From: Stramenopiles sp. TOSAG23-6
Lineage: Eukaryota
Direction of reading: 5' to 3'
NCBI GenBank assembly: GCA_900128565.1
Contig: LT635945.1
Coordinates: forward strand, 1-35,346
Length of the DNA stretch: 35,346 nt
Below, piece by piece: positions 2-34,556 of the stretch (the stretch's first letter is position 1; each line of letters begins with the position of its first letter). Made by a program: the position numbers and the translations under genes. Under the pieces are notes generated by a model that was given only the letters and a program-made list of their open reading frames with translations, was not told the origin of the DNA and ran no database searches.

Positions 2-3000
2 CTGAAGTGTGCTGATGGTTTCAGTATAACAGGTAAAACACCATCTTGTTTTGCTGGTCTTTTCGACCCTGGATGGGCTGCATGTATTCCAAGTCCAACA
101 GTGTTACCTCCAAAGGTTGAGACCGAATTTGGTACAGGTGTTGAAGTTCCTAAAACATTCATTGGGGGTGAAATCATCGATCATGGCACAACAGGCGATT
201 TAAGTTGTAGTAAAGGTTTATCTTTGTCAGGGAAACAACCATTTGCTAAAAACGGAAAATTTGATCCTGGAACGATTAAATGTACTTCACCAGGGGCAAA
301 TGATTGTACCGTTCTGAATACTTTAGAGGTGCCTGAATATGGTATTTCTGGTATTGGTTGTATGACTGGTAAAGTTTTGCAACACAATGCAACATGTAAT
401 TTTACTTGTAATGAAGGATACACTTTACAAGGTGAACAACCCAAATGCGCGAATACTAAAATTAGTTTAGGTTCGATAACTTGCACTCCTAACAGCTGTG
501 AAGTTCTTGGTCTTGAAATATCGAACACTAGAACGAATAAGTTTAGCGATTGTTCTAATGGTATGACGATCGCTGACGGCCATGAATGCAATGTTTCCTG
601 TAAGACTGGATATTCTCTAGTGGGTCGAAAACCTTCATGTAATGCCGGAAAGTTTGACATAGGGACTACTACATGTGTACCCGACAGTTGTTTGGTAACA
701 GGTGTACCAACTGTGCAGTCCGGTGACATTGGTAGTGACATTTTCTATAAAACACAACATAGTGTTACCGCTGATGCTAGCGTGGCTAAATATGTGCCAA
801 TTTGTTTTAATGGAATGAGACTTGAGCATGGTCATTTCTGTGCAATTCGGTGTAAAAGTGGATATTCTCATACTGGAAAAAATCCCAGTTGCCATAATGG
901 TACATTTGATCTTGGATGGAAAGTATGTACTCCATCTAATTGCGTTGTGCCTGATAGTATTACAGCTCCTACGAACAGTGACGGTATACCAAGCAACTGC
1001 AAAGCAGCTGCTGTTATGAAACATGGTGATCAGTGTAAGTTCAGTTGTAAAACAAATTTTGTAATATCTGGGGTACCACCAAAATGTCTGTTTGGAAAAT
1101 TTTCTACTGGTAGTGTTAAATGTACAACAGAAGAAAAACAGTACTGCACTGCAAATAATATAAATATACCTACAAATGGTTTCATCGGAAGCAGATGCTC
1201 TAACGGCAAACTCGTGGCGCATGATACGCGTTGTAATATTGGATGTAGTGCCGGGTATGAGTTAGTGGGACAGCAACCTACGTGCTTCAACACAAAGATG
1301 ACACTGGGTTCGCTAAAATGTCAACCAAAAAGATGCGTTGTTCTCGGTCTCTCTCTACCCCATAATATTGAAAACCTTCCTGGTGCATGCGTGAATGGTG
1401 CATCCATCAAAAGTGGTAGTTCGTGTACTTTAATTTGCAAAAAAGGTTATAAAACTGTTGGAGAACAGCCACATTGTTATAATGGCAAGTTTCACGTAGG
1501 ATCTACAAAATGTGTACCTCTAAATTGTGTTATAGATACTTTAAGACAACCTGATAATGGTAAAACACCATCAGAAAATTGTAGTATAGGTGCATACATA
1601 TCACATAATTCACACACATGCAATATTCAATGTAAAAAGGGATATGAGATCAAAGGAGAGCAAGCATCATGTAAATATGGAAAATTTAACCCTGGATGGG
1701 CTACATGTGAACCTCAATCGTGTGTAATCTCAAAGTATGAGTATCTAGGCTGTTTTGCAGATACTAGTGTTCGTGATCTTTCACATCGCGCCATTGGTGC
1801 TGACAAAAAAGTACTCAATGGAGCTAACCGAGAGTCATGTGTGAATGCGTGTATAAGTATGGGCTTTACATATGCCGGGACCCAGTGGTATGGAGAATGT
1901 TGGTGTGGAAATCAATACGGGAAATATGGTGAGAAACCGATTGAAGAATGTAGAACACCTTGCAAAGGGGGTGCAAAAGGTGAAATGTGCGGAGGTGGAT
2001 GGCGTAACTCCATATACAAAGTTCGGGTTCTCCAGAGCCTCGAGAATGGCAATGAAATTCCGAAGGAATGCGCCAACGGTTCACGACTAAAGCATGGCAG
2101 TACTTGTAGTATGAAGTGTAACCCAGGATATGTAATCTCTGGGAACCTTCCATCTTGTTCTTTTGGGGTGTTTGACATAGGAAGTCTCAAGTGTGATATA
2201 AAACAAAGTAATAATATTTGCACTGTTGGGAAAGTTGTTGCGCCAAAGAATGGATATATAGGCCCACTTTGTAAAAAAGACAATTTACTTAAATTAGGAG
2301 AGTCATGTCAAATACGTTGTCAAGATGGCTATAATTTAATAGGAGAACAACCTAAATGTGTTGATACAAACGGTACTTTTGGTGTAACTGTTGGATCTGT
2401 GTCGTGTGTTCCAAAGTCATGCAAAATTAATGGTTTGCAAATACCCAAAAATGGAAATGATATTCCGGGTGATTGCTCAAATGGTTCAAACATTCAACAC
2501 AATAAATCATGCAAGCTTACTTGTACTGATGGCTATACACCAGTTGGAAAGCAACCACATTGTAATGCTGGCAAATTTCATTTTGGAAGCATTAAGTGTG
2601 AACCTAACAGTTGTGCAATTGTTGGGCTAGAATTACCAGACAATTCGACAAATGCTTGGATTACCAAGGGATCGTACTATACTGATGCAACGACTAATGA
2701 TAGACAATGTACTGATGGTGCTATACTTGAACATGGTTCGCGTTGTAGGATAACTTGTAAATCTGGTTATTCTCCAATTGGAGAGGCACCGTATTGCTCT
2801 GCGGGAACATTTCATCCTGGATGGACAATTTGTCAACCACACTCATGTAAAATTCCGGATACTTTCACTGCTCCCCAAAATACAGAAGCTCTGACGTCTG
2901 AATGTACTCCTGGTGTATCTCTCCTTGAGCACGGTGGTGATTGCAAAATAAAATGTAAAGCCAACTTTATTGCATCTGGGAAGCCACCTTCTTGTTCCCT

Positions 3001-6000
3001 TGGCGTCTTTAGTCCTGGCACTATGCAGTGTACACCAGTACAATCTAACGACGGAAGTTGCCTGACCATAGGAAGACGTGCTAGGTATATACGAATTACC
3101 AGTGATAGTCGCTTACATTGCGACAAAGGGTCCGACTGTACGTGGCATGTTCACGATGTTTCGTTTTTAGAAAACTCAACGCCTTTGTCAGGTGTTACAG
3201 CACATAAATGGGCATTTCAAGATGGTAGTCACACTGGTGCTCACATGTTGGATGGAAACAAAACAACCTATTGGGCGCCATTACTAACCGATTGTGGAGA
3301 CACTTGCACTGAATATGGTTCCCAGTGGATTATATTAGACTTCGGCTCCGTCAAAAGGTTTGATAAATGGAAATTTAAACATGATACTTCAACCATAAAA
3401 AATTCAGTAGATCGCATAATTTTTGAAACATCTGAAGATCTTGCATCTTGGTCGAAACCACTTTACTTGAATGTAAATGTTTTAGGCGAGACACAATTTT
3501 CTTTGCCTAGTTTGATTAATGTTCCAGATAATGGTTCAATTGGAACTGTTTGTGGCGATGGACAAACAGTGAAAAAGGATTCGACTTGTTCGTTAGAATG
3601 CGACGCTGGATACTCAATTAGAGGAGAACAACCTCTGTGTGGAAACAATAATGCGTTAAGTAGTGGATCGATTACATGTGTACCGAATAGCTGTATGATC
3701 AAAGGAATAAAACAAATTAAGAACGCGGATCCGTTGCCAGGTAATTGTCGTAATGGAGCTGAATTATTTCATGGAAGAAGTTGTTCAATAAGTTGCGCCG
3801 AGGGCTTTCAATTGTCCGGTAAGCAGCCATGGTGTGATAAAGGTAATTTTCATATGGGTACAATTACTTGTGAACCCCGCAAGTGTATAGTTAAAGGCTT
3901 GAAAACTCCGGCTAATGCGATGCCTCTGCCTAATACTTGTAAAACTGGATCAAAATTGTCACATGGTGATACATGTGAGATATTATGTAATGCGGGGTAT
4001 GAAGTGAAAGGTGAGAAGCCATCGTGCTACCAAGGAAAATTTGATCCTGGATGGATTGAGTGTGTACCCAAAGCTTGTGAAGTTAATTCATCTAAATATA
4101 TAGGTTGTTACAAAGATTCCCCCAATCGTGATCTTAAATATTGGGCCAAAGATTCAAACAATACGGTTTTGCGTCGATCCAATAAAGAAACTTGTGATGA
4201 AGCTTGCAGAGTATTAGGTTATAAATATGCTGGAACACAATGGTATGGAGAATGTTGGTGCGGAAACAAATATGGAAAACATGGCAAGGTATCAGACTCA
4301 GAATGTAATACACCGTGTAAAGGAGGCCCAAAAGGTGAAAATTGTGGAGGCGGATATCGCAATTCCATTTATGAAATCGCGATGTCTTTCCCTGTAAATA
4401 GTGGTGTAATAATTCCTTCAACGTGTAGTATTAGTTCCAAATTAAGTAACAACGAAATGTGTAATCTCACTTGTTTATCGGATGAAGTTCTTTCTGGAAA
4501 ACAGCCTTCGTGTTCTCTTGGTGTATTTGACCCCGGGACAGTGACATGTACCAAGCAGCAAGCTAATGATAAAAGTTGTACAATTGACAGTATTGATCTT
4601 CCCCCAGGTGCTGTAGTTGGACCTATATGTACTAAAGGAAATAAATTAGCTGATTCATCTTCGTGTAGTATAGTTTGTGAAAAAGGAATGAATCTTATAG
4701 GGGATCAACCTAAATGTACAAATGGTGTCATGAGCAAAGGATCACTGAAGTGTGAATTTGCAAAGTGTACTGTTATTGGCATGAGCGTACCTCTCAATGG
4801 TTCTATTTTACCAGGATCGTGTACGAATGGCTCAATAATTGAAGATGAGCATGTTTGTAATATAACATGCAAAGATGGTTATTCACCTTCCGGTATAAAA
4901 CCCTACTGTGCTGAGGGTGAATTTCATAGAGGTTCAGTGACATGCGAACCTGATAATTGTACAATAGTAGGCTTAAAGCAACCGATTAATGGGTTTAAAT
5001 TACCTCCTCGTTGTAAAAATGGGGAATATTTGAAGCACGGAGAATCTTGCCAACTTGAATGTATGGAAGGTTATGATGTACACGGCAATCAGCCAAGTTG
5101 TAGCAAAGGGAAGTTTAACCCTGGTTGGATCAAGTGCACCCCGAAGTTTTGTATTATATCGGATTCGGAGTACATCGGATGTTTTAAAGACAAAATTACG
5201 CGCGATCTTTCATTTCAAGTTAAATCTTTAAAATTGGTTAATACGGAAACTTGTGTGAAAGCATGTAAAGACGCCGGTTATAAATTTGCTGGCACTCAAT
5301 GGTATGGACAATGCTTCTGTGATAATAACTATGGAGATTATGGTGAAGCAGATGAAAAGAAATGTAGTACTAGGTGTAGATCTGGTTCAAACGGGGAAAT
5401 GTGTGGAGGTTCATGGCACAACTCCGTTTATAAAATATTCGAGATTAAAGCTCCAGCGAATGCAAATCCTGTTCCAACAGAATGTAGCAAAGGAAAAGTT
5501 CTGAAACACGGAGAAAAGTGCCCAATGACTTGTAAATCAGGGTTTGCTTTGTCAGGAAAGTTTCCATCGTGTAAGTTTGGTATTATTGATAAAGGAGATA
5601 TTACTTGCACTCAAAAGGTTTCGACAGATTGTACTATTAGCGCCGTAGAACCACTTCTTGAGGGGATTCAAAGTGCGAGTTGCCAAGTTGGATCATTTCT
5701 TGCCGACAAAGAAACTTGTAAATATAAGTGTAAAAGTGGATATACATTACAAGGAGACGCTCCAAAATGTACAAATGCAGTAATGAGTGCTGGAACTTTA
5801 AAATGTGAACCTGATTCGTGTAAAGTATCAAGTATAGTTGTACCTAAATACGGGAAGAATATTCCAGCATCATGCTCTCCAGGTTCGATACTTAAACACG
5901 ATGAAAAATGTCATATTCAATGTAGCGAAGGCTATGCTATATCTGGTATATTACCATATTGTGAAGCTGGAAGATTCCGGCCTGGTTCTTTTAGCTGTGT

Positions 6001-9000
6001 TCCCAAGGATTGTATTGTGACTGGTTTAACATCGCCAAATGGAAAGCCTTTACCCAAGAGTTGTAGTATAGGGGCAACACTGGCTCATGGTCAAGAATGC
6101 AACTTACAATGTAAATCTGGATATTCAACAAAAGGTGTTCAACCTCATTGTGAGGCAGGTAAATTTGACCCAGGTTGGATAAAATGCGAGCCATTGTCGT
6201 GCAAGGTACCTAGTAACTTTACTGTGCCTGCAAATACAAATGAGCTTCCGAGCAATTGTCTTCCAGGTGCCATAATAAATCATGGAGATGTATGTCATTT
6301 GACTTGTAAAAATAATTTTGCTCTTTCAGGCGATCAACCCAGCTGTTCATTTGGAGAATTTTTAAATATTAATGGCATCTCATGCAACACAAAGGTTTCC
6401 CAAGGGAATAAAAAAGATTGTGTTGTCAATATGGGATCCAACGGATCGTATGAGGAAATCCCGGGTGGTTTTAGAACTGCAACTTGTACCGATGGTAATA
6501 TATTAGGAATGAACCAGTCATGTGAAATCGAATGTGAAACTGGGTATACACTTGTTGGAAATCTACCATACTGTAATGATGGTACTATCACTGAACGTTC
6601 TGTAGAATGTGTTCCTAATTCATGTACAGTGTTTGGATTGTATCCACCCATGTATGGTATGGAAATCCCCGGATATTGCAAAACTGGGGCTACACTTCAT
6701 AGCGGTCAGAAATGCGAACTTCATTGTCAGGAGGGTTATGAAATATCTGGGGACCAACCTTCTTGTGAAAACGGCGAATTTAATATTGGGACAATTTCGT
6801 GTGTTCCAAAACCGTGTACTGTAGCAGGTCTTCTCCCATTAGATAATGGGGAATACATGGATCCATGCACTGTTGGGGATAATTTGTCACACGGAGATGA
6901 ATGTAATATAGAATGTTTCAGTGGCTATACACTGCAGGGCAAGGTCCCACAATGTCTATATGGAGAAATGTATCCTGGATGGCCCCGTTGCTCTCCTGAT
7001 CAATGCACAGTAAATGAAACATTTGAGAAACCTGCAAATACCATCGATTTGCCAAACAGTTGTAATCCTGCATTTTGTGGGTCGTCTGCTTTCCCTTGTC
7101 CTATTGGTACACGTGTTATTGCAAAATGGCCTGCGTACGAAGATTTGGAGGATAACCCTTGGTTTGCTGGTACAGTGATTGCTCAGTCGATTATAGATAA
7201 TGAGACCATGTTTCAAATTGAGTTTGTGGATGGGGACTCTGATGAAGTTCATGCACTCGATGTCATACATTGTCCACACCGTGATGATGATTGGGGGAAA
7301 GGGGAAAAGCGTGGAAACCATTTGAGGCCTGATGGATGCAATGCATCTATCCCTGATGGAATGAATTGTGAAATTCAATGTAGTGTTGACTACGCCATTT
7401 CAGGGACACAGCCAAAGTGTAATGCCGGGCTATTAGATGAAGGTGATATTGTATGTCATCAGTATAAATCGAATATAGATTGCAAGGTTACAGCTAATGA
7501 TTGTGTATATGAAAACGGATACCGGTTTAGTAGTGTTGGCGACGAAAAAGAATATGATGGTACAGGTGTTGAAATCCCCGGGAAAAGTGACCATGAAAGC
7601 TGTTCCAAAGGTGTTCTGGCAGATTATCCATCAGCATACGGAGCAACATTTACGGCTACAAAAAAATGTTATGCTGAATTGAGTATTGATATTCCTAGTA
7701 ATCCAAATGCAAGAGGTGTGAAAACTCAACCCACATTTGCGTGGGAGACTTGCATATTCAGTTCTCCAGTTGTAGAACCTGAAAATGGCTTTCTTGGTAA
7801 ATCATGTAAGAACGGGTCGATAATAAAAGATGGCGCGTCGTGTGATGTAAATTGTGATGAAGGTTATTCACTTGAAGGGCAGATGCCTCTATGTACCAAA
7901 GGAAGCTTAGATCCTGGATCTGTCTTATGTGTTCCAAATGGATGTGAAGTAAATGGTCTGGAAAAAATGATACGTGGAAGCTTTTCAGAAAACTGTGCTA
8001 ATGGCTCTCGAATATTAGACGGTGAGGTGTGTGAATTATCGTGCCCAGAAGGATTTGAACCTTCTGGGGATGAACCATATTGTTCTGCGGGTGTTTTTGT
8101 TGCTAATACCATGTCATGCGAGCCTATGAGTTGTATGATACATGGTATTGATGAACCAGAGAATGGCTTTACAAATTGTACTAATGGTGACACTCTAGGG
8201 AACGGGGAAATGTGTGAAGTGGAATGTAATGTTGGTTTTCATTTAGAGGGCGAGCTAGGTTCTTGTTATGATGGAAACTTTGATCCTGGTTGGTCTACTT
8301 GCTCACCTGATGACTGCACTATATCCTCATCTGAGTATATTGGTTGTTTCAGGGATAGTGGGAAACGAGATTTGCCATATAGAATGAAAAAGAATGGCCA
8401 ATACATAAAGAATGCAGACTCTGAACAATGTATTCGTTTATGTGATTTGGCTGGCTATGCTTATGCTGGAACACAATTTTTTGGAGAATGCTGGTGTGGA
8501 AATGATTTTGGCAGATATGGTGAATCTCCAGATGATGAATGCAGTACTGAATGCAAATCAGGTCAAAATGGAGAAATGTGTGGGGGTGTGTGGCGAAATT
8601 CTGTATACTCAATTGGATTTATGGATTCTATTGTAACTCCTGATTCAAATTTAATAATACCCGAAGACTGCGTTGATGGTGCTATTCTGGCACACGGACA
8701 GGAATGCAAGATGAAATGCAAGGATAATTATTCTCTTTCTGGTAAGTTGCCTTCCTGTTCTTATGGTCATATTTATATGGGTGATCCAGTGTGTACAGCA
8801 AAAGCATCTCAAGATTGTGATGTGATGAAAACTGTAACAGGAATGAGTGATACATTTTGCAAATATTACGATGGCAAAGGAACTAATATTCAGCATAAAA
8901 ATCTGAACATTCATGTTGAAACTATAGATAAATGCGTAGATGAAGCCCGCAAAAAATATCCAGATGCAATTGGGTCAAGCTTTAAGCATAAAAATAATCA

Positions 9001-24000: not shown

Positions 24001-27000
24001 AACCAAAGCAGCATGTCAGAGCATATGTGAACAGAATATATTGTGTACATCATTCCAAACTACTCCAGATAGAAGTTGTTACATCTTTTTCGGTGAGGGT
24101 TCTAAATTTGAGGTTTCTGGTTGTGAAAATTTTCCAAATGGCAGTCAAATATTTGCTGACACGAAATGCTACAGAAAAAACACAACATTCTCAATGGATT
24201 CAATCCAACCTCAATGTAAAAGTAAGACTTTGAGCGTCGATAGCAAAATGGAGTGCGAGCCTGATGCATGCATGGTTATTGGAATGAAAGCTCCTAAAAA
24301 TGGCTCACCTTTACCGGGAACTTGTTCAAATGGCACAACTATTCAGCATGGCAAGTCATGTGATTTATCTTGCAAGGATGGTTATACCAAGTCTGGCACA
24401 CCGCCATCATGTAATGCTGGAAAGTTTTTTGTCGGTGAAATTACGTGTACTCCAAGTGATTGTATCGTTGTTGGTATGTCATCATTTGTGTCGAAATCAT
24501 CAAATGTTTACCCATCAAATGAGTATTCATTTATTGGAGACGGATGTTGTGATGTCACCAATGGTAAGAAGAAAACGATAGGCACTGGTATTACAAATGC
24601 CAAGTGTGAAGCAAGATGTGAAAATGAAGAGCAATGTATATCATTTGAACTAAGCGGGTGTAATTCGGATTTATCTTGTAGTGGAACATGTATTCTCCAT
24701 TATGGTGATGCAACATTATTAAGTACAAAGACTTGCAGCTCGGGGATTAAGTGTTTCAAAAAGGAAAACACCGGGAGGTTTCTATTGGCCCAGGGAACAA
24801 CCTCTTCTACTAATGCTACTTCATCAACGTGTATAGATGGTGAAGTACTGAAACACGGCGAATCATGTAAGTTTAGTTGTGCACCTGGATATTTAACCCA
24901 AGCGCAACATCCAAAATGCAATGCTGGTAATTTTGAACAAGGTTGGGTCAAGTGTATCCCTCTGTCATGTAAAGTTACCACAGGTATTGTTGTACCATCA
25001 AATGGTGAAGATATCCCTGAGTCGTGTTCAGTTGGGAAGATGTTGAAACATGGTGAGTCTTGTCGCTTGACTTGTAAATCAGGTAATGCATTATCAGGCA
25101 ACCAGCCATCATGTAAAGCTGGCATATTCGATGTAGGTAGTGTGAAATGCACGCCTAAAAAATCTAGCGGAACTGACAAGGATTGTACTGTAGGCAGTAT
25201 TACTTTTCCAGAGAGATCTATTTATGGAATATGTTATCCAGGAAATCTGATAAAACATGGTGACACATGTAATTATTCGTGTGAAGAGGGATTTAATCCC
25301 CAGGGGGAAAAACCAAAGTGCACAAATGGTATATTGAGTGCAGGAAGTTTCAAATGTATTCCTAGACATTGTACTATTTTTGGTATGCCAGAAGTTTCTG
25401 ATGTTGTCACTGAATGTTCTAATGGAATGATCATAAATAATAATGAAAAATGTTCTGTATCTTGTAGAAAAGGATTTGTTGCTACTGGAAATCCACCATC
25501 TTGTAATGCTGGTAAATTCAACCCAGGGTCTGTTACATGTGTTCCGAATACATGTATAGTTGCTGGTCTAAAAGATGTATATAATGGCTCTTTTGATGCA
25601 AAATGTTCAAATGGGTCCTTTCTTGAACATGGCACTCAATGTAATTTGACATGTGACGATGGTTACGAAGTTGAAGGAGATGCACCTTCATGCAAAGCAG
25701 GTGAATTCAACACAGGCTCAATAGAATGCAAACCATCTAATTGTTTTGGCTTCCAGTATGAAGGATGCTTCAATGAAGATGCCGCGGTTCCAGAATTTAC
25801 AAAGTTAATCCGTAATGGTAAACTTTTGCGTCCATGGAGATGTGCGCGCATTTGTTACCGTAAGGGGTATAATTATGCTGCTGTCAGAGATGGTGGTGTC
25901 TGTTCCTGTGGAAATTCAGTAGGAAAACATGAAGCTGCGACTGAAGCTTCTTGCAATGTGGCTTGCGCTGTCAAAGCTAATGCAAAAGAAGCTAGTTTGA
26001 CGATTGGAGATAAATGTGGTGGAGCTTCACAAAATTCGGTGTATAACTTAACTACTTTCCCATTACCGGCAAATGCTAAAACAAGTGTTGGATATAACAA
26101 AAAAGAAGATACATTTTTTGATCCTTGTTCAGTTGGAGATATCAAACACGGTCAGTCTTGTCTTTTGAGGTGTAAAAATCAATTTGCAATGTCAGGTACT
26201 CAACCAAAATGTTCATTTGGTATACTCAATCCCAATACATTTTCGTGCTCCCCCGCGAATACATCATCTGACTGTGTTGTGGATGGAATTACAATCCCTG
26301 AAAATGGTAGTAGGGGTACATGTATTGATGGCTTACTTGTTAAAGATGGAGGTTCTTGTGAATTAACTTGTAATACTGGATTTGTTTTGTCTGGAGCACA
26401 GCCAGTGTGTGGTTCGAAAAAAATGGGGTCTCATAGCATCAAATGCATAGCTGAGACATGCACAATACAAGGCCTGTTCCCGGTGGAAAATAGTTATGCT
26501 ATGTCAGGAGCTTGTGCAAATGGGGCCACTCTAAATCACCGTGATATTTGTAACGGTTCTTGTCTTACAGGATATACCATTGCAGGTACACAGCCTTCAT
26601 GCTCTTTGGGTAACTTCCGCAAAGGGAGTTTCTCTTGCAAGCCAGATGATTGTATCATTAGTGGGTTTGTAAAACCACTGAATGCTCAAGATCTTCCTTC
26701 TACATGCAAGAATGGGGCGATACTTTCACATAATACAAGCTGTTCCCTGAAGTGTATGTCGGGTTATCAGACAAATGGAATGCAGCCTTCATGTAATGCT
26801 GGGCATTTTTCTCCAGGTTGGTTATCGTGTAGACCACAGAACTGCATTGTTGAGAAATTTGGAGCTATAAGTGATAGTAATCCAATTCCGACAAGTTGCA
26901 AGGCTGGAGCTTTACTTTTACACGGCGAGTCATGTGACATTACATGTTCGAAGGATTATTCTTTGTCCGGTACACAACCAAGTTGTAGTTTAGGTAAATT

Positions 27001-30000
27001 TTCTGCCGGGACAGTTACATGTACAAAAATAAGTTCATCATCGTCTTGTGTATCAACTTTAATTACAGTAGTAAATGGAGTTGTAAGTAGTGCTTGTAGT
27101 CCTGGATCTCTCTTGGCGAAAAGCGCAAATACCACATGCGGTGTCAAGTGTGACCCAAATTATAAACTATCAGGCACACTGCCTGTATGTTCATCTAGTG
27201 GTTTTAACCTTGGTAATCCAGAATGTAAACCTAATGATTGCTTGGTCAATGGAATCATTAAAGATATTAATGGAGAAGAAATTCCACCAATGTGCTATGA
27301 GGGAGCTACACTACCTGACGGCGAATCTTGCGATTTGGCGTGTAAAAAAGGATTCACTGTTAAAGGAGAACAACCAATGTGTGATGGGGGTGCTTTCTCG
27401 CCAGGTTCAGTAACTTGTAAACCGAATGACTGTACTGTGGTTGGAATGCCTCTTGTTGATTTTTCAGATGGTTGGATAGCTTTAGGTGGTGGTGAATGCA
27501 AGAATGGGTACACTTTGAATCATTCATCAATTTGTTCATTGAAATGCATGGTAGGATATTCACCAAAAGGCCAGGGGCCTTGGTGTTCCTCGGGTAGTTT
27601 TGAAACTGGTTGGGCATTCTGTGAAGCTGATTCATGCACTGTTGACGAGGAACTAACTGCTGAAACTTCTGTTTTAAGTAGACGCCGTCTTGAAGAAAAC
27701 GCTCTACAAATACATCCAATGTTCAGTAATGGTAGTCGACGTCTCTCAAAAGATGTGTCTAGTGTTCAAAAATGCCACACTGGTGATGTTGTCGCACACG
27801 GTGAAGCATGCGCAATGACATGCCCACCAAATTATGCTTTGCAAGGAGAATACACACATTGCACTTGTGGTTTGTGGAGTGTCAGTTCAGTGACTTGTTC
27901 GTTATATGATAAAGCTGTTGATTGTATTATTGACAATAGTAAATTAAATTCATTACCTACGGGGGGTCTTCCCGACTCAGGTTGTTCAGATGGATTTTTA
28001 CTCAAGGATGGCTCCACATGTCACTTTGGCTGTAAGAAAGGTTACACAGTTACAGGTACACAGCCAACTTGTAATAAAGGAACAATGAATCTTGGAAATG
28101 TTTCATGTAAAGCTACGGGTTGTATTGTATCTGGTATGCAAGCGCCACTTAATGGAGATAAGCTTCCTGGTGCATGTTCTAACGGTCAACTTATTGAAGA
28201 TGGAAAATCGTGTTCACTTTCTTGTCTCCCAGGGTATGATATATCGGGAGCTCAGCCATCTTGTAGTTCCGGGAAATTTTCAAAAGGGACTGCAACGTGT
28301 GCTCCAAAAAATTGTACTGTTGCTGGATTGACTAAACCTACCAATGGTAAGTCTATCCCTTCTTCATGCAGTAATGGAAAGACTATCACACATGGAAGCA
28401 GCTGTAATCTTTCATGTTTAGATGCATATAATCTCAGTGGGAAACAACCATCGTGTAAAGCTGGTGTATTTGATCCAGGATGGGTAACATGTTCTCCAAA
28501 AGATTGTACAATACCCCAAAATTTTGTGATTCCAACAAACGTTCAAGGTACTTGCACCCCAGGTGGAAATTTATCTCATGGTGCCACGTGTAACTTATCA
28601 TGTAAAACGGATAAAGAGTATGCGTTTTCTGGCACACGGCCGTCATGTAATGCAGCAACTTTCAGTGCAGGAAATGTGGCATGTGCAGTGAAACAATCTG
28701 ATGATTGTAAAGTGAAACAAGGTGAAATTTCAACTCCATCGAATGGTTCACTCGCACCAGCGTGTAATGTTGGTCAAATATTAAAATTTGATTCTGAAGC
28801 AGAAGATTGTGTGAAATGTAATCAAGGGTATAAACTTTCGAACTCATTCGTTCAACCAAAATGTGGAAACAGTGGATCTATCGTTTATTCTCCGCCAACC
28901 ACAGTGTGTATTCCTGATGCATGTATTATAACAAATATGATTCCTCCTCAAAATGGAAAGGCACTTCCATCTGCTTGTACAAATGGGAAAACACTCAATC
29001 ATGGTAGTTCGTGTTTGATAGAGTGTGCTACTGGATATTCATTGGTTGGCAATCAGCCATCATGTTCAGCCGGCGCATTTAGTATCGGTTCAATTTACTG
29101 TAAACCGAAAAAGTGTACAATTAGTGGAATAGTACAGCCAACAAATGGCGCGTCACTTACTGGTGTTTGTGAAAATGGTCAATTTCTGGCACATGGACAC
29201 TCATGTGGTATCAAATGTAATCAAGGATATGATTTCAGTGGAAAACAACCATCTTGTAATGCAGGGGTATTTGATAAAGGTTGGTTTATTTGTAAACCAA
29301 AGGACTGTACAATACTACCAATGAATGTACCAACAAATGGTGCCCCACTACCAGATAATTGTAAAATCAACAAAGTTCTTAAACATGGACAAAAATGTGT
29401 TTTGACATGCCTGCCCAACTATTCGTTATCTGGCACGCTACCTTCTTGTTTGGCAGGTACATTTAGTCCAGGTAGTGTAAAATGCTTATCTACTGACAAT
29501 GCAAAGGATTGTCGAGTGAACAATATCTCACTATGTACCCCTGTTTCCAAAAATGGGGTTCTTGTTAAGAGTGGCACAAGCTGTGATCGTCGATGTGATG
29601 AAGGGTATACAGTAACTGGAACAAACCCATCTTGTACTAACGGCAATTTGACAAATACTGGTAAGGTATCATGTGTTGCAAATACTTGTATTGTAGCAGG
29701 GATGAAGACACTGGAAAATGGAGCAAGCCTTCCAGTAGATTGTACCAATGGAAAAATATTAGCAAATGGTGCCAAGTGTAGTCTTACATGCAATTCAGGA
29801 TATTCTCCGTCAGGTGAACAACCTTCATGTGACAAAGGAGTATTTAAGATTGGATCAGTTACTTGTGCGCCAAATAGTTGTACTGTTTCTAATTTGTCAA
29901 AACCTACAAATGGAAGCGATATTCCAACATATTGTACGAATGGAAAAGATATTGTTCATGGAAGTAGTTGTAAACTGACATGCGAGACTGGTTACTCAGT

Positions 30001-33000
30001 TTCCGGAAATCAACCATCTTGTAATCTTGGCAATTTCACTTCGGGTAATGTCTCTTGTTCTCCAAATAAATGTACTGTACCAGGTTCATATAGTGTTCCA
30101 CTAGATGCCGTGAAAAAAGGCGACCAAAGTTGTTCATCGGGAGAATCTATGAATCATGGTTCACAATGTTTATTTACTTGCAACGCACCGCATACTCTTA
30201 AAGGTACAAATCCATCATGTTCTGCAGGAAAATTTAACCCCGGTAGTACATTTTGTCATTGTACTGTAGTGGACATAAAAGCACCTCTAAATGGTTCAAT
30301 TGGCTCTTGCATAAAAGGATCGAATGTGAGTAAATGTGATTTGAAGTGTAATCTAGGGTATACATTATCCGGAACACAACCGGTATGTATAGAAAATTCG
30401 GTTGCAGCAAACAATTCGGACCCTGTAAAGTGTACAAAAGTTCCATGTCCGAACAATACCATTGGTTTGGGTGGAGGTTCCCCGTGCACGTGTCCATCTA
30501 AGCACTCTGGGGGTTTTACCTTGGGAAGTAGTAGTAATGCATATGATGTAGGCAGCCAATGTCAGTTGATCAGTTGTCCTGCTAATAGTGCATTTAATAA
30601 TGATAAATCAGAATGCCTTTGTAATTCACCATACAAGGGAACAATAATGTATTCTGAAACAAAGAAAAAATATGAGGGCGAATGTAAAATTGAATGTCCG
30701 TCGCTATCCAAAGGTAGCGGTAATGGAAGTACGTGCTCGTGTGTATCTGGATATACTGGAACAGTCACATGGACTTCAAGTAATAAGACATATTGTACTA
30801 CCTGTTGTCATAAGGTAGCATGTCCCAGTCATAGTGAAGGAGATGGGGCTGGAAAAGAATGTCTCTGCAAGCAAGGTTATACAGGTACAGTTCCGTTTAA
30901 TACAGGCCAAAATAAGTATACTGGAGCTTGTAATAAAGTTACTTGTCCAACAAATAGCACTAAAAATGATAATGGACCATGCACGTCATGCGAGCCTGGT
31001 TACACTGGAACGATTCAATTTAACAATAGCAGTAGAACATATATGGGTACATGTACTCGGATCAACTGCCCATTATATTCTACAAGAAGTGGAAATCAAA
31101 ATGTCTGTGTTTGCGATAAAGGTTATACTGGAAATATTACATTTCTTTCTGATAAAAATGAATATTCTGGGAAATGTACAGCTGTGGCTTGCCCGGCAAA
31201 TTCTGGTGGCCCTGGCGCCAAAGACGGATGTCAATGTTTGAGTGGTTACGATGGAGAAAACCCAAAATTTAATGAAAGTGGCAATGCATACTCAACTGGT
31301 ACATGTACAGCGGTTGCATGTGTTACAAACAGCTCAGGTACCGGAAACTGCAAATGTAACAAAGGGTATGGGGGAAATATGAAATTTGATCTCTCAAGCC
31401 GAAAGTATACTGGTGCATGTAATGCGCTATCCTGTCCCAACAATAGTACGGGAAATGGCAAAGGTGAAAGTTGTACATGTGATTTAGGTTTTAGTGGAAC
31501 AATTAGTTTTTCAGATGATAAAAATACTTATGAAGGTAAATGTGTGAGTATCCCTTGTCCATCCAATAGCACAGGTAATGGTCAAGGTGGTACTTGTACA
31601 TGTAATCCCGGTTTTTCTGGAAACGCCACATTTTTGTCCAATACAAACAAATATGAAGATGATTGTAAAAGCATTCCTTGTCCAGTCAATACAGTAGGTG
31701 CAGGTGGTGGTAAGAATAATTGCATTGTTGTAGATGGACATAAAGGAACTGTCGTGTTTTCTGCAAAAAATAATAAATACGAATCATCATTGTCAGTAGT
31801 AGCTTGCCCAGTAGGTAGTTCAAAAACAACAAATGTTTGTTCATGTTCTACTGGTTATTATGGCAACCTTGTTTTCGACAAAGAAACATCATCATACACA
31901 GGCATTTGCACTAAAATCCAGTGCCCCAAAGATAGCACTGGTTCAGGTGGTGGAAATGAATGCAAATGTATTTCCGGGTATTCTGGAACTATTACGTTTG
32001 ATACAAAATTAAATGTATATCAAGGATCGTGTAAAGATGATTCTAAATGTCCTTTAAGAAGTGCAGCCGATGAATCTTCATCCCCCCCTCGCAAATGCTA
32101 CTGTCACCAAGGTTACTCTGGCACAATCTCTTTTGATACGACAAGCAAAAAGTATGTGGGGGTATGTACCCCAGTAAATTGTCCTGCTCATAGTTTGCGA
32201 GATCCACCTTTGCCATTAGGATCGCGAAGAAACTTAGAGGCTAATGATGTGTACGGTGCCCAATCCGCTGCTAATGTACCATATGGCTGTGTCTGTAAAG
32301 CAGGGTGGAATTTCGGCAGTAAACATGGAATAACTTGGTCAAAGACGAGTCAAGTTTTCGTTGGTGAATGCTCACCAAAACCTTCTGAGGAGGACGGTCT
32401 TGTGGCCATACTCTGGATACTTCTTGGTGGTTCTATCGTTGCTGCTTTATTTCTTGGTGCACGGTATGCCCAAAAAATAATGAAACCTAGCATAGCCGCA
32501 AAACGTAAAAAGAGAAAATCGAAAAAGACAAAGGGTAAGGTTGCACCATTGGAAACTTTGGACAATAAAGAAGGTAGTAAACCAGGTATCAGTGATTACA
32601 CAGGCCTGGGAAATACTTTACTCAACGAAGAGAAAACTAATGATGGATATGGGTATTATGATTATTCAAATTCAGATGACTATAGCGATGGTTCTGAAGG
32701 TTTTTGGATGGATATGGATGATGGATACAGTACAGATGAATATTACACCGATGGCTCCTTTGATTCAGATGATAGCGATTTTTTTGCGCAAATGGAAAAT
32801 AGAGCAAAAAATAATCTATTAAAAAAGGAGGAAGCCGCAACAATAATACAAGCAAGAGAAAGGGCCAATCAAGCCCAGAATGATTTTATAGTAAAAAAAG
32901 AGAGTGCAATTCAAGTACAATCTCTTGCCAGAGGTTCCAATGCACGCAAACCTCTGAAAAACTATAGTGATGATGATGTAATTGCTTTACCAAAAGAACC

Positions 33001-33193: not shown

Positions 33194-33352
33194 GCAAAAT
33201 CAAATAAAAATGTATTTTAACAAAAAAAAATTCGTTTGATTTTTTTCTTTTTAATTGTAAACATTATTTTAAAGAATATTTTTGTTTTTCACTATTTTTT
33301 AAATAAAAAGAATATTTTCATACAACATTTCTATGCAAATGAATGGCGAAGC
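33194..33352. terminator. 159-bp AT-rich convergent intergenic/3'UTR region with candidate poly(A) signals
   Basis: AATAAA at 33203-33208 and 33302-33307 on +, with T-rich tracts, between two convergent stop codons. AATAAA is weak evidence in DNA this AT-rich. Confidence 0.35.
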
Positions 33353-34272
33353 TTACCATTTATCATTTGCAGGTCCTGTGCGGCAATATAATGGATTTAG
33401 CCCTAAACAATAATGACAAGTCAAATATGACGGACAAGGAGATCTCAAGGCTTGAGTTCCCCCCAAATCTTGATAGCACCAATTATTCATAAATTCAGGA
33501 CATGTATTTTGAAAAAATATTTCAAAAAAAATTCGTTAGGTACAAAATTTCGTACGAAAAATAAATTTGAAATTGAAAAAAAATAAAACATACATGCTCG
33601 TAAAGTCATTTGTTGTGCAAGACACATTGCTTTGTACTCATCATGTGGTACCTTTTTGCACAAATCATAGAACCCATGACCTAATAGATACGCATTCTTA
33701 TTGATGAGTTTACAAATTTCACACTCCTGAACACCCGTAGATGTGTAGTAAATAATTCCTGCTTTTTTTGGAATATTTTTACCAAACGGGATGAATTGAC
33801 CGGGTTCTCTTTTGCCAGAGTCCCCATTTTCGCTTTGAAGTTGTTCAACAAGTCCGCCACCTGAACCAGGAACATTGATACCAGAATGTTTCACTGGTAG
33901 GGCACTATTTTGTAGAATATCAGTCAGAGAAACTGCTCCTGTCTCCCCAGTAGGTCCTGCTGCCTTTCCACCAGCTGCCTCTGCCACAGGTTCTTCTACA
34001 GCTTCCCCTTCCTTTACTTTTTTTCCTCCGCCTTTTTTCTCTTTTTTCTCTTTATCATCGTTAGCTTCTTCTGCATCAGCCTCTTTATCGTCAGCCTCTT
34101 TATCGTCAGCCTTTTTAAATCTTGCTTGCGCGTGGTGGTGTTTATGAGTATGCTTTTTCAGAGTATGCTTTTTATGATGATGTTTCGGTCTGCCAAGAAC
34201 TTTCTCGCCCATACACATTATACAAAAACATGCTAGTATAGCAATTGCAATACATATATTCAATTTGATCAT
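33353..34272 (-). CDS. Secreted protein (~275 aa; exons 34272-33594 and 33501-33353) with His/Lys-rich N-region and Cys-rich C-terminal domain
   Basis: Signal-peptide-like MIKLNICIAIAILACFCIMCMG, then KHHHKKHTLKKHTHKHHH, KEADD repeats and ECEICKLI...LC...MC. The ORF-track tail (MFYFFSIS...) is intron read-through. Splicing gives CPEFMNNWCYQDLGGTQALRSPCPSYLTCHYCLGLNPLYCRTGPANDKW-stop (TAA 33355-33353). Confidence 0.8.
33502..33593 (-). other. Spliceosomal intron, phase 1 (3' boundary uncertain)
   Basis: Donor GTATGT at 33593, CCTAAC branch motif at 33540-33535, T tracts, very AT-rich. Ends ...AAATACAT|GT at 33502, or at the in-frame AG at 33470-33469. Confidence 0.75.
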
Positions 34273-34556
34273 TTATATTGTTGTTTGCAACGTGCTTGTG
34301 ACTGTCTAAAAATATTCGCCGTGGAGAATAAGGAGATTAGACAACAATTTCAGATACTTTCAATTTTGAAATCCAAATTCGAATTAAATCACCGAAACGA
34401 AAATTTCTTCCGAAAGTTTAGAACAAACCTGCTTTGCTGTGCAAATTCGGCGGTTTTTATTGCTTTGACTTCTATTACACCTACGTACAAGTCTGGTATC
34501 AACGGGTAAGTATCAAATTAGCAAGTAAAGATACAACTTACAATTCATACAATAAA
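34273..34556. promoter_or_regulatory. 284-bp divergent intergenic region, probable bidirectional promoter
   Basis: Lies between head-to-head ATGs at 34272(-) and 34557(+). No specific element identified. Confidence 0.45.

What the first reader, a model, noticed from the sequence alone, without database searches (positions are those of the whole stretch)
2..30433. Scaffold-and-plug-in surface protein: ligand-binding domains nested inside Sushi modules of a four-module periodic stalk
Seen: the accessory domains do not sit between Sushi modules, they split them. Example: PQSC-VISKYE-[WSC]-VRVLQSLENGNEIPKEC...C...C...C...C. 11 of 12 WSC domains sit just after Cys1 of D modules. The discoidin, LamG and type-1 PAN inserts follow Cys1 of A modules, and all three Tudor-like inserts follow Cys2 of D modules. 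The A-B-C-D period continues undisturbed through about 26 cycles. Inference: the stalk keeps its register while at least 7 kinds of mostly glycan-binding-type domains project sideways, like a bottle brush. It could act as a multivalent prey-capture, adhesion or coat filament several hundred nm long. I do not recognise this architecture from any characterised protein.
Basis: partly seen in the sequence, partly recalled or inferred. Interest (0 to 1): 0.9.

Follow-up and report, generated by a model that had tools for sequence, protein, structure and literature searches.

The report
Giant sushi-repeat protein with nested domains
A marine eukaryote encodes a membrane-anchored protein of more than 11,000 residues whose stalk of about 107 sushi-type modules carries 26 extra domains, many of lectin-like families, plugged into loops inside the modules rather than between them, a design so far best known from laminin.

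Summary
The window holds one 5'-open ORF (2-33193, 11,063 aa). It contains 107 six-cysteine modules of about 64 aa, arranged as 26 unbroken A-B-C-D cycles plus three extra modules.

AlphaFold2 (pLDDT 90.3) and Foldseek place the modules in the CCP/Sushi fold. phmmer links them to animal SVEP1-like Sushi proteins. Pfam's Sushi model stays below its cut-off.

All 26 domain-sized extras lie between cysteines of a module:
- 12 WSC, 11 of them after Cys1 of D modules
- 1 discoidin
- 3 FAMeT-type
- 1 LamG-like
- 3 Tudor-like
- 5 PAN-like or candidate PAN, of three kinds
- 1 unknown

Paired cysteine losses imply C1-C5, C2-C3 and C4-C6 bonds, so an insert after Cys1 is truly nested. I had no model coordinates, so reassembly of the split fold was not checked directly.

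A 7,735-aa relative (P0001, about 40% identity) is collinear and has the same insert kinds at the same intra-module sites. No other hit combined modules with WSC.

An independent seawater contig and RNA contigs, including polyA-selected ones, match the gene.

The function, a multivalent glycan-binding adhesion or coat filament, is inferred. The nested design has a precedent in laminin (L4 inside LE). CCP as the host, at this scale, appears new.

The parts
2..33193 (+). Giant ORF, 11,063 aa, open at the 5' end (N-terminus missing), stop codon at 33191-33193
   Evidence: An independent metagenome contig covers 18612-32939. RNA contigs lie collinear on it with no joints inside the ORF.
2..30433 (+). 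CCP/Sushi-like stalk (aa 1-10144): 107 six-Cys modules = partial C, D, 26 complete A-B-C-D cycles and a final A-like module
   Evidence: AF2 pLDDT 90.3 and Foldseek hits to factor H, beta2-GPI, CR2, DAF and CD46.
1742..2026 (+).
   Evidence: AF2 model plus Foldseek match to Wsc1 (7pz2, TM 0.78) and Kremen WSC.
3062..3514 (+). Discoidin (F5/8 type C) domain nested after C1 of an A module (aa 1021-1171)
   Evidence: PF00754, 35.4 bits against a cut-off of 28.2; position.
4097..4381 (+). WSC after C1 of a D module (aa 1366-1460)
5171..5440 (+). WSC after C1 of a D module (aa 1724-1813)
7067..7336 (+). Tudor-like domain after C2 of a D module (aa 2356-2445)
   Evidence: BAHCC1-like Tudor, 26.3 bits, below the cut-off of 28; position.
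7484..7750 (+). PANa (candidate PAN/apple) domain after C1 of an A module (aa 2495-2583)
   Evidence: No Pfam match. The Atlas PAN lead was obtained for its sister copy.
8336..8617 (+). WSC after C1 of a D module (aa 2779-2872)
8819..9076 (+). PANa domain after C1 of an A module (aa 2940-3025)
   Evidence: Atlas feature hits to PAN_1/PAN_4 clusters at 0.91-0.93; a lead only.
9671..9955 (+). WSC after C1 of a D module (aa 3224-3318)
10220..10483 (+). WSC between C2 and C3 of an A module (aa 3407-3494); the one WSC not hosted by a D module
   Evidence: The same site is occupied in P0001 (aa 247-333), and that copy is its best match (114 bits).
11018..11287 (+). WSC after C1 of a D module (aa 3673-3762)
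11501..11758 (+). PANa domain after C1 of an A module (aa 3834-3919)
12356..12640 (+). WSC after C1 of a D module (aa 4119-4213)
13010..13435 (+). FAMeT-type domain (PF12248) between C5 and C6 of an A module (aa 4337-4478)
   Evidence: Pfam 98.4 bits; position.
13868..14152 (+). WSC after C1 of a D module (aa 4623-4717)
15074..15346 (+). Tudor-like domain after C2 of a D module (aa 5025-5115)
16184..16456 (+). Tudor-like domain after C2 of a D module (aa 5395-5485)
17228..17647 (+). FAMeT-type domain after C1 of a D module (aa 5743-5882); the C1 codon holds an N
18035..18445 (+). FAMeT-type domain between C5 and C6 of an A module (aa 6012-6148), flanked by two extra Cys
20945..21229 (+). WSC after C1 of a D module (aa 6982-7076)
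21434..22210 (+). LamG-like (concanavalin-type) domain after C1 of an A module (aa 7145-7403)
   Evidence: Laminin_G_3, 25.2 bits, below the cut-off of 27.6, E 2e-5; position.
22307..22861 (+). Unknown 185-aa domain between C4 and C5 of the same A module (aa 7436-7620)
   Evidence: No Pfam, PDB or Atlas match. A homologous insert sits at the same site in P0001.
23306..23590 (+). WSC after C1 of a D module (aa 7769-7863)
23894..24226 (+). PAN-like domain (PANb) between C4 and C5 of an A module (aa 7965-8075)
   Evidence: PAN_1, 14.9 bits, below the cut-off of 21.4; position.
24464..24826 (+). Cys-rich domain (PANc) after C1 of a C module (aa 8155-8275); the only folded guest in a C module
   Evidence: no Pfam match.
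25745..26053 (+). Divergent WSC after C1 of a D module (aa 8582-8684)
   Evidence: PF01822, 46.6 bits; position.
30434..32371 (+). About 15 membrane-proximal 4-Cys repeats of about 41 aa (aa 10145-10790)
   Evidence: no Pfam family; 4 relatives found.
32399..32470 (+). Predicted transmembrane helix (aa 10800-10823), followed by a Lys/Arg-rich stretch; implies type I topology
   Evidence: Read from the translation; no predictor was run.
32471..33190 (+). Cytoplasmic tail (aa 10824-11063) with an acidic segment that resembles the tail of P0001 and three LPKEPKPE-type repeats
   Evidence: by eye; no Pfam family.

Best explanation
The window encodes most of a giant type I membrane protein of a marine eukaryote.

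The extracellular part is a rod of at least 107 CCP/Sushi-type modules. Each module is stiffened by a third disulfide. The modules form a four-module superunit (A-B-C-D) that was duplicated at least 26 times. Junctions inside a unit are fixed at four residues. A longer linker of 3-11 residues, a possible hinge, separates units.

Twenty-six globular guest domains are inserted into surface loops of A and D modules, and of one C module. The loops used are C1-C2 (18 guests), C2-C3 (4), C4-C5 (2) and C5-C6 (2). Because C1 bonds to C5 behind the insert, the host module closes around the base of the guest. The module-to-module contacts of the stalk are therefore left intact.

Shown:
- the anatomy and the period of four
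- the CCP fold, by prediction
- the WSC fold, by prediction
- conservation of the insert sites in a collinear relative
- presence in independent DNA and in RNA libraries

Inferred:
- the disulfide pairing, from paired losses
- reassembly of the split fold
- lateral display of the guests

Most likely function (inferred, about 50%): a multivalent, largely carbohydrate-binding adhesion or pericellular coat filament. It would be anchored in the plasma membrane and present WSC, discoidin, PAN/apple, LamG-like and other domains along a stalk of a few hundred nanometres. The stalk length is module count times a recalled length of about 3.6 nm.
For: ORF and topology.

Modules and period: 107 modules, a lag-4 signal (125 against about 102) and type HMMs. 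There are 26 unbroken cycles with fixed 4-residue linkers.

CCP fold:
- The AF2 model of an insert-free ABCD unit has pLDDT 90.3.
- 70 Foldseek PDB hits have E<=1e-3, and every listed one is a CCP-containing protein. The top hit is factor H 5o32_C at 5e-9.
- phmmer links the modules to SVEP1-like animal proteins P0011 (2.8e-57) and P0014 (7.3e-56).
- Those two proteins score Pfam Sushi at 1e-64 and 3e-97.

Nesting:
- All 26 inserts lie between module cysteines.
- Paired Cys losses: window aa 33-96 lost C1, C2, C3 and C5 but keeps C4 and C6. P0001 lost C2+C3 four times, C1+C5 once and C4+C6 once.
- In the AF2 model of C-D(WSC)-A (pLDDT 86.5), the junction blocks score 93 and 89. The DSSP pattern EEEE--EE at the C/D junction is the same as in intact units. 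The D remainder has the same strand and helix order as an intact D.
- The WSC part matches Wsc1 (TM 0.78, rmsd 2.7 A) and Kremen.

Conservation:
- P0001 is 7,735 aa and scores 3550 bits at 40% identity.
- It is collinear with window aa ~3161-10129.
- It has the same insert kinds at the same intra-module sites.

Real and probably expressed:
- One 14.7-kb contig from another study is 99.8% identical.
- RNA contigs from two studies, one of them polyA-selected, lie on the ORF without joints.

Guest families: WSC 354.7 and 112.1 bits, Methyltransf_FA 98.4 and 184.7 bits, F5/8 type C 35.4 bits.
Against: - Pfam's Sushi model does not reach its cut-off on the window's modules: 17.0 against 20.7 bits, and no hit at E<=0.01 on the long pieces.
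- The canonical Trp is present only in 20 of 27 C-type modules and in none of the A, B or D modules.
- No model coordinates were available. The C1-C5 distance, the contact of the two halves of a split module and the direction in which guests point were not measured.
- Both AF2 alignments consist of paralogous copies from the same protein.
- Six of the nine insert kinds lack a Pfam match above cut-off. FAMeT-type and Tudor-like domains are not known lectins (my knowledge).
- The N-terminus is missing, so no signal peptide was seen.
- The 11 D-hosted WSC inserts are probably one insertion event copied by unit duplication. WSC-bearing D modules cluster on a poorly resolved tree: 5 changes against a shuffled mean of 8.6. 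Independent insertion events are therefore far fewer than 26.
- RNA-library contigs cannot by themselves exclude carried-over DNA (tool caveat).
- No functional data of any kind exist.
Confidence: 0.6

Rival explanations
1. Same architecture, different job. The protein is a surface mechanosensor or matrix/scale anchor, in the manner of yeast Wsc1. There, WSC heads grip the extracellular matrix, the long stalk transmits tension, and the conserved acidic cytoplasmic tail signals. In this reading it is not an adhesin for prey or substrate.
For: WSC is the dominant guest: 12 of 26. The WSC model superposes on the Wsc1 mechanosensor domain 7pz2. There is a single TM helix and a cytoplasmic tail whose acidic segment resembles that of P0001 (by eye).
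Against: Wsc1 is small, with one WSC and a Ser/Thr-rich spring (my knowledge). Here eight other guest kinds are displayed along the whole stalk, which suits multivalent binding better than point sensing. No signalling domain was found in the tail.
Confidence: 0.2
2. Same architecture, used for cell-cell recognition within the species, such as gamete or colony adhesion. It would be comparable to long fibrous sexual agglutinins of algae.
For: The protein is a long, membrane-anchored, Cys-rich fibrous rod with many recognition-type domains. It has diverged to about 40% identity from its closest relative, which would fit a recognition protein.
Against: RNA contigs occur in several bulk seawater metatranscriptomes from two studies. 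That suggests common rather than stage-limited expression, but this is weak evidence. There is no direct evidence either way.
Confidence: 0.1
3. The inserts are not nested. The cysteine before each insert belongs to the preceding module or to a linker, and the guests sit between complete smaller modules.
For: Only 4-7 residues of the host module precede the 11 D-hosted WSC inserts. No coordinates were available to see the C1 strand packed against the rest of the module.
Against: - C1 and C5 are lost together and C4 and C6 together, which is the CCP I-III/II-IV topology.
- Each WSC already has its own 8 Cys, so without C1 the host's C5 would be unpaired.
- Eight of the 26 guests sit after C2, C4 or C5, deep inside the module.
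- The AF2 secondary structure at the junction equals that of intact units.
Confidence: 0.05
4. The giant ORF is an artefact: a chimeric or collapsed assembly of repeats, or non-coding repeat DNA that happens to be open.
For: The window holds 26 single Ns and comes from small sequencing runs. Highly repetitive genes are prone to misassembly.
Against: - The repeats are only 63-85% identical at DNA level.
- An independent contig of 14.7 kb is collinear with 35 mismatches.
- A 33-kb open frame with conserved Cys frameworks exists.
- The fold predictions are confident.
- There is a collinear 7,735-aa relative.
Confidence: 0.02

Closest known systems
Laminin alpha/gamma short arms (and, from my knowledge, perlecan domain III): L4 domains nested in LE modules
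   Same: A rod of small disulfide-rich modules carries a globular beta-sandwich domain inserted between two cysteines of one module (L4 between Cys3 and Cys4 of an LE domain). For the related LF insert, a crystal structure shows that the regular array is not disturbed (PMC5338690, passages read).
   Different: The host module is the 8-Cys LE domain, not CCP. There are one or two inserts per chain, of one or two related kinds. The window's protein has 26 inserts of nine kinds in four different loops, with a strict four-module superperiod. There is no sequence relationship.
Long CCP/Sushi arrays of animals (SVEP1/polydom, CSMD, CR1, factor H)
   Same: They contain tandem CCP modules with short linkers. 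The window's modules hit SVEP1-like proteins by phmmer at E about 1e-57, and these carry the same 6-Cys variant (by eye). The predicted fold matches factor H, DAF, CR2 and CD46.
   Different: In those proteins other domains (CUB, EGF, VWA, pentraxin) lie between CCP modules, not inside them (my knowledge; no such case was found). The module-only relatives examined here show no domain-sized gap inside modules.
P0001, an unnamed 7,735-aa EukProt protein
   Same: It has about 40% identity and is collinear with window aa ~3161-10129. It has the same module types, the same insert kinds at the same intra-module sites, a TM helix and an acidic tail.
   Different: It is uncharacterised. It is shorter at the N-terminus, possibly because the gene model is truncated. 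Its discoidin and extra FAMeT-type copies sit in other units. It lacks the window's C-terminal tail extension. Whether it is an ortholog or a paralog cannot be told, because its source is not named.
WSC-domain proteins (yeast Wsc1, Kremen, fungal WSC lectins)
   Same: The 8-Cys WSC domain passes Pfam's cut-off. The predicted fold matches Wsc1 7pz2 and Kremen 5fwv/5fws.
   Different: In 129 of the 150 best library hits WSC occurs as free-standing tandem copies without CCP-like modules. In the 32 metagenome loci none has modules.
Chlamydomonas mastigoneme protein MST1
   Same: It is a protist extracellular filament built partly from Sushi domains and rich in disulfides (PMC10602792, passages read).
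   Different: MST1 has nine Ig-like and six Sushi domains in series and polymerises. The passages read describe no nested domains and no TM anchor.

Membership tests
CCP / Sushi / SCR module (PF00084) | Module of about 60 residues with a conserved Cys framework, in tandem with short linkers | tested here: met
   107 modules fit a 60-position HMM. 124 of 126 full-length hits carry all six Cys. Linkers are 4 residues within units.
CCP / Sushi / SCR module (PF00084) | Beta-sandwich CCP fold | tested here: met
   AF2 pLDDT 90.3. Foldseek PDB gives 70 hits at E<=1e-3, and all listed ones are CCP proteins. This is a prediction, not an experiment.
CCP / Sushi / SCR module (PF00084) | Disulfides CysI-CysIII and CysII-CysIV | tested here: inconclusive
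   Paired losses indicate C1-C5 and C4-C6, which equal I-III and II-IV, plus an extra C2-C3 bond. Only a few events were seen. No coordinates or chemistry were available.
CCP / Sushi / SCR module (PF00084) | Conserved Trp between CysIII and CysIV | tested here: not met
   Trp three residues before C6 occurs in 20 of 27 C-type modules. It occurs in 0 of 26 A, 0 of 26 B and 0 of 27 D modules.
CCP / Sushi / SCR module (PF00084) | Score above Pfam's gathering threshold | tested here: not met
   17.0 bits against a cut-off of 20.7 on an ABCD unit. No Sushi hit at E<=0.01 on the 5,000-aa pieces.
CCP / Sushi / SCR module (PF00084) | Sequence homology to accepted Sushi proteins | tested here: met
   phmmer E 2.8e-57 (P0011) and 7.3e-56 (P0014). 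These score PF00084 at 1e-64 and 3e-97.
WSC domain (PF01822) | Pfam threshold, eight Cys, WSC fold | tested here: met
   354.7 bits for 9 stretches and 112.1 bits for 3. The divergent copy scores 46.6 bits. 8 Cys were counted in the example. Foldseek to 7pz2 gives TM 0.78 and rmsd 2.7 A.
F5/8 type C (discoidin, PF00754) | Pfam threshold | tested here: met
   35.4 bits against 28.2 for the isolated insert. Within the long piece it scores 26.7, below the cut-off.
Methyltransf_FA (PF12248) | Pfam threshold | tested here: met
   98.4 bits for 1 copy and 184.7 bits for 2 copies, against a cut-off of 24.2.
LamG / concanavalin-like (PF13385) | Pfam threshold | tested here: inconclusive
   25.2 bits against 27.6, E 2e-5, covering profile positions 18-150 of 151.
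Tudor-like | Pfam threshold or match to a solved Tudor domain | tested here: inconclusive
   26.3 bits against 28 (BAHCC1-like Tudor), plus three further Tudor-type families at E 1.7e-4 to 0.04. The PDB profile search gives only PHF20L1 at E 0.43.
PAN / apple | Pfam threshold | tested here: inconclusive
   PANb scores 14.9 against 21.4 bits. PANa and PANc have no Pfam hit. PANa has Atlas feature hits to PAN clusters at 0.91-0.93, a lead only.
Laminin-type nested design (L4 in LE) | Host is an 8-Cys LE module and the guest is an L4/LF CBM35-like domain | tested here: not met
   The host modules have six Cys and the CCP fold. No laminin family appeared in the Pfam scans. It works like this design but is not a member.

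The most novel reading that the evidence does not exclude
A protist lineage has turned the CCP module into a general socket for guest domains. Four different loops of the module accept at least nine unrelated guest folds. The rigid A-B-C-D superunit sets both the spacing (about 15 nm, inferred) and the azimuth at which guests are displayed. The result would be a programmable lectin brush several hundred nm long, used to recognise prey or surfaces. It would be the first CCP-hosted nested architecture and the most heavily nested natural protein described.
Probability: 0.3. Interest if true: 0.8.

Novelty: new variant of a known kind. Interest (0 to 1): 0.62.

Why it matters
Domain insertion into very small disulfide-rich modules is rare. 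The textbook case is laminin, whose inserts still have no assigned function (PMC5338690, passages read).

Here one protein holds 26 such insertions, in four loops of the CCP module. They are conserved in a relative of about 40% identity. The finding gives three things:
- a natural map of where a CCP module tolerates a whole guest domain, which is useful for engineering display scaffolds
- a test case for how mosaic surface proteins are built without exon shuffling, since the gene shows no introns over the 14.6 kb laid
- a candidate for the surface recognition or adhesion machinery of an uncultured marine eukaryote, seen in several seawater data sets

It also shows that a 6-Cys CCP variant is shared by animals and diverse protists, although Pfam's Sushi model misses it here.

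Tried and rejected
- Complex prediction on the two halves of the split D module, C module plus C1 strand against the D remainder. The score was 0.31 against a mark of 0.34: no verdict, so it was not used as evidence either way.
- Simple identity clustering did not separate the module types. Type HMMs did.
- A word-based search for longer homologs of C-D(WSC)-A found nothing.
- The metagenome scan with alignment A2 returned 32 loci. All are WSC-only, and 0 of 32 have a CCP-like module.
Single-protein scans of viral contigs and prokaryotic genome contigs found no relative. These scans reach only close relatives.
- PDB sequence searches for the Tudor-like, PANa and unknown inserts gave only E of about 0.4-0.7. 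The Atlas found nothing usable for the unknown insert.
- No whole genome is held for this window, and there are no earlier notes on it.
- I read an IQ-like motif in the tail by eye. Pfam gives no family there, so I dropped it.
- I considered a prokaryotic or giant-virus origin. I found no support. The relative comes from a eukaryote protein set, and contigs occur in polyA-selected libraries.
- Gaps in RNA contig cover along the gene were not interpreted.
- Gaps of 53-85 aa (one of 204 aa) between module hits in module-only relatives fit one or more modules missed by the score cut, not nested domains. This is my reading; the gap sequences were not inspected.
- Literature: three full-text searches found no paper describing a domain nested in a CCP/Sushi module. 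Supplements were not consulted.

Full report
**What is in the window**

The window holds one open reading frame from base 2 to 33193 on the + strand. It is 11,063 codons long and open at the 5' end, so the N-terminus is missing. GC content is about 0.37-0.41 throughout. Twenty-six single Ns appear as X in the protein.

Downstream lie a 261-codon ORF on the - strand and a 3'-open PDZ-domain ORF on the + strand.

**The stalk**

I built a 60-position HMM from 72 clean copies in the window. It finds 107 modules with score above 10. The framework is C1-x~15-C2-x~12-C3-x3-C4-x12-C5-x11-C6.

Similarity between module i and module i+k peaks at multiples of four. The mean BLOSUM62 score is 125 at lag 4, 119 at lag 8 and 114 at lag 12. 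At other lags it is about 100-108.

Plain identity clustering did not separate types. Four type HMMs converged in two rounds and give ...DABCDABCD....

My module table has 26 complete A-B-C-D cycles. They are preceded by a partial C and a D, and followed by one A-like module.

Linker lengths are as follows:
- B to C: exactly four residues in 26 of 26 junctions.
- A to B: one search printed 25 of 26. The single miss is an off-by-one end in my own table, for the module starting at aa 5939. By reading, the linker there is also four.
- C to D: four residues in 25 of 27 junctions. The two exceptions are a module that has lost C1 and a module whose C1 codon holds an N.
- D to A: 3-11 residues.

Only C-type modules carry a Trp three residues before C6, in 20 of 27.

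**Are the modules Sushi/CCP?**

The evidence is mixed at the level of Pfam but clear otherwise.

Pfam's Sushi model does not reach its cut-off. It scores 17.0 against 20.7 bits on an ABCD unit. There is no hit at E<=0.01 on the two long pieces.

An AlphaFold2 model of an insert-free ABCD unit, built on an alignment of nine such units (A1), has mean pLDDT 90.3. Its Foldseek search of the PDB gives 70 hits at E<=1e-3. All listed hits are CCP proteins, including factor H, beta2-glycoprotein I, CR2, DAF, CD46 and factor XIII B.

An exhaustive phmmer search with aa 375-1516 also hits animal SVEP1-like proteins, P0011 at 2.8e-57 and P0014 at 7.3e-56. Those two score Pfam Sushi at 1e-64 and 3e-97.

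I therefore file the modules as a six-cysteine CCP variant. Two textbook features fail: the Trp and the Pfam threshold.

**The inserts**

HMMs of the window's own insert types, together with Pfam, give 26 domain-sized inserts in 25 modules.

| Kind | Copies | Position | Family evidence |
|---|---|---|---|
| WSC | 12 | 11 after C1 of D modules; 1 between C2 and C3 of an A module | PF01822, far above cut-off |
| Discoidin | 1 | after C1 of an A module | PF00754, 35.4 bits, above cut-off |
| PANa | 3 | after C1 of A modules | no Pfam hit; Atlas features point to PAN clusters, a lead only |
| Tudor-like | 3 | after C2 of D modules | 26.3 bits, just under cut-off |
| FAMeT-type | 3 | 2 between C5 and C6 of A modules; 1 after C1 of a D module | PF12248, above cut-off |
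| LamG-like | 1 | after C1 of an A module | 25.2 against 27.6 bits |
| Unknown, 185 aa | 1 | between C4 and C5 of the same A module as LamG | none |
| PANb | 1 | between C4 and C5 of an A module | PAN_1, 14.9 bits, sub-threshold |
| PANc | 1 | after C1 of a C module | none |

The D-hosted WSC inserts begin 4-7 residues after C1.

By loop, the counts are C1-C2 18, C2-C3 4, C4-C5 2 and C5-C6 2. By host type, they are D 15, A 10, C 1 and B 0. None of the 26 sits in an inter-module linker.

The C1-C2 loop also carries shorter, partly low-complexity expansions in several B, C and D modules.

**Is the nesting real?**

The question is whether the cysteine in front of an insert belongs to the module behind it. 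Four lines of evidence say yes.

1. Each WSC has its own eight Cys. The host's C5 would therefore be unpaired without C1.

2. Cysteine losses occur in pairs.
   - The window's first D module (aa 33-96) has lost C1, C2, C3 and C5 but keeps C4 and C6.
   - In P0001, C2 and C3 are lost together four times.
   - In P0001, C1 and C5 are lost together once, and C4 and C6 once.
   - This implies bonds C1-C5, C2-C3 and C4-C6, which is the CCP I-III/II-IV topology plus one extra bond.
   - The events are few. The other odd patterns in that call are alignment shifts at insert-bearing or indel-bearing modules.

3. An AF2 model of C-D(WSC)-A (aa 505-802), built on an alignment of ten such regions (A2), has pLDDT 86.5. 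The blocks around the junction score 93 and 89.
   - The C6 strand of C, two coil residues and a two-residue strand at C1 of D appear just as at junctions of the intact unit.
   - The part of D behind the insert shows the same order of strands and short helix as an intact D.
   - The WSC part superposes on yeast Wsc1 (7pz2, TM 0.78, rmsd 2.7 A) and on Kremen.

4. Eight guests lie after C2, C4 or C5, deep inside the module.

I could not obtain coordinates, so the C1-C5 distance and the direction in which guests point remain unmeasured.

**Relatives**

The phmmer query (aa 375-1516) found 5,366 proteins at E<=1e-3. I scanned the 150 best listed hits with my module and WSC HMMs.
- Only P0001 has both: 80 modules and 8 WSC. 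It is 7,735 aa and scores 3,550 bits at 40% identity.
- 129 hits are WSC-only.
- 20 hits are module-only.

It is collinear with window aa ~3161-10129. The best HSPs lie on one diagonal at 34-45% identity.

P0001 has WSC after C1 of D modules seven times. It also has the following, each at the same site as in the window:
- WSC between C2 and C3 of an A module
- PANa and LamG-like inserts after C1 of A modules
- the unknown insert and PANb between C4 and C5 of A modules
- a Tudor-like insert after C2 of a D module
- FAMeT-type inserts between C5 and C6 of A modules and after C1 of a D module

Its A-hosted WSC matches the window's A-hosted WSC best (114 bits). The nested sites therefore predate the split of the two proteins.

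Other results on relatives:
- Module-only relatives include proteins from Picozoa and other protists, and one fusion of four modules to an FGE-sulfatase domain. By my reading of the gap sizes, they show no nested domains.
- A pattern scan of metagenome contigs returned 32 WSC loci, none with modules.
- On a poorly resolved tree of the 27 D modules, the WSC-bearing ones cluster. There are 5 changes against a shuffled mean of 8.6, and 3 of 500 shuffles are as low.
- That clustering fits one or a few insertion events multiplied by duplication of loaded four-module units.

**Reality and expression**

- DNA repeats inside the gene are 63-85% identical, not near-identical.
- The stretch 18000-27999 is held at 65-92% of its sampled words by three seawater DNA runs of a study other than the likely source. 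It is held at 5-38% of words by RNA-library runs of several studies.
- I laid contigs of four runs on 18612-35346. One 14,661-nt DNA contig covers 18612-32939 with 35 differences and no gaps.
- RNA contigs of up to 1,397 nt lie on the ORF without any joint. They come from one study without polyA selection and one polyA-selected study.
- Contigs from RNA libraries do not strictly exclude carried-over DNA.
- The eukaryote-type relative, the presence in polyA libraries and the domain repertoire all point to a marine eukaryote. I did not try to name it.

**The rest of the protein**

- Behind the stalk lie about 15 four-Cys repeats of about 41 aa with no Pfam family. Four relatives were found.
- A hydrophobic helix follows at aa 10800-10823, and after it a Lys/Arg-rich stretch.
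- The 240-aa tail has an acidic segment that resembles the tail of P0001 (by eye).
- This implies a type I orientation, with the whole stalk outside the cell.

**How it most likely works**

The stalk is a segmented rod. Four tightly joined CCP modules are followed by a longer linker, and this unit repeats at least 26 times.

Guests are placed in loops whose two ends lie close together, and the C1-C5 bond clamps the base of the largest class. End-to-end module contacts and the register of the stalk therefore stay unchanged.

This is the same principle that crystallography showed for laminin. L4 domains lie between Cys3 and Cys4 of an LE module, and the LF insert leaves the LE array regular (PMC5338690, passages read).

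At about 3.6 nm per CCP module (recalled), 107 modules would span roughly 380 nm if extended.

WSC, discoidin, PAN/apple and LamG families are known mainly as carbohydrate- or surface-binding domains (my knowledge). I therefore commit to a multivalent adhesion or coat filament. My confidence is about 50% for that function and about 85% for the structural reading.

**Novelty**

Three full-text searches found no description of a domain nested in a CCP/Sushi module. The nested-module principle itself is known from laminin. Long CCP arrays and WSC proteins are also known.

I therefore rate this as a new variant of a known kind. It is notable for three reasons: the number of nested domains (26), the number of guest kinds (9) and host loops (4), and the strict four-module superperiod.

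Noticed in passing
window 30434-32371 (aa 10145-10790): About 15 tandem 4-Cys repeats of about 41 aa (CPxNSxGxG...CxCxxGYxGxIxF...YxGxC) lie between the CCP stalk and the TM helix. They have no Pfam family. Similar repeats are visible by eye in the Picozoa protein P0052 and in P0009. Four relatives were found (P0156-P0159).
   Followed up: partly
window 86-283 (aa 29-94): The first D module has lost four of its six cysteines, in pairs: C1 with C5 and C2 with C3. It keeps C4 and C6. This is a natural experiment on the disulfide pattern.
   Followed up: yes
window 33500-33591, inside the - strand ORF 33487-34272: Contigs of two polyA RNA runs from one study skip 92 nt. The junction is ambiguous over 5 nt, and no placement gives GT-AG ends on the - strand (GT..AT or AT..AC are possible). 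The stretch is AT-rich and low in complexity, and no DNA contig bridges it. It could be a non-canonical intron, a strain-level deletion or a library artefact.
   Followed up: partly
window 34434-35345: A 3'-open ORF carries PDZ domains (PF00595, E 4e-9, two stretches). It contains a 300-nt direct repeat at 95% identity (34573-34872 and 35008-35307).
   Followed up: no
window about 18470-19200 (aa about 6160-6400): The C1-C2 loops of one B and one C module hold Ser/Thr/Asp/Asn-rich low-complexity expansions of about 60-70 aa. They are possibly mucin-like glycosylated spacers. A comparable acidic, low-complexity expansion occurs in P0001.
   Followed up: no
window 7067-7336, 15074-15346, 16184-16456: The Tudor-like insert has relatives (E 2e-32 to 7e-8) in four unnamed metagenome proteins. 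Three of them carry Pfam families: thioredoxin, PARP catalytic and TauE. It therefore looks like a mobile small domain that is not restricted to surface proteins.
   Followed up: partly
window 12203-12502 and 13715-14014: The most similar pair of WSC-bearing segments is 85% identical at DNA level. Other WSC copies are 63-78% identical. This points to recent duplication or gene conversion between neighbouring units.
   Followed up: no
P0017 (656 aa): An unnamed protein combines four of the same 6-Cys CCP-like modules with a C-terminal FGE-sulfatase domain (PF03781, E 8e-42). The module family therefore also occurs outside giant stalk proteins.
   Followed up: no
window 32471-33190 (cytoplasmic tail): There are three LPKEPKP(E/D)-type repeats near the C-terminus. 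An acidic segment (around FW..DG...SD.F) resembles the tail of P0001. No Pfam family was found.
   Followed up: no
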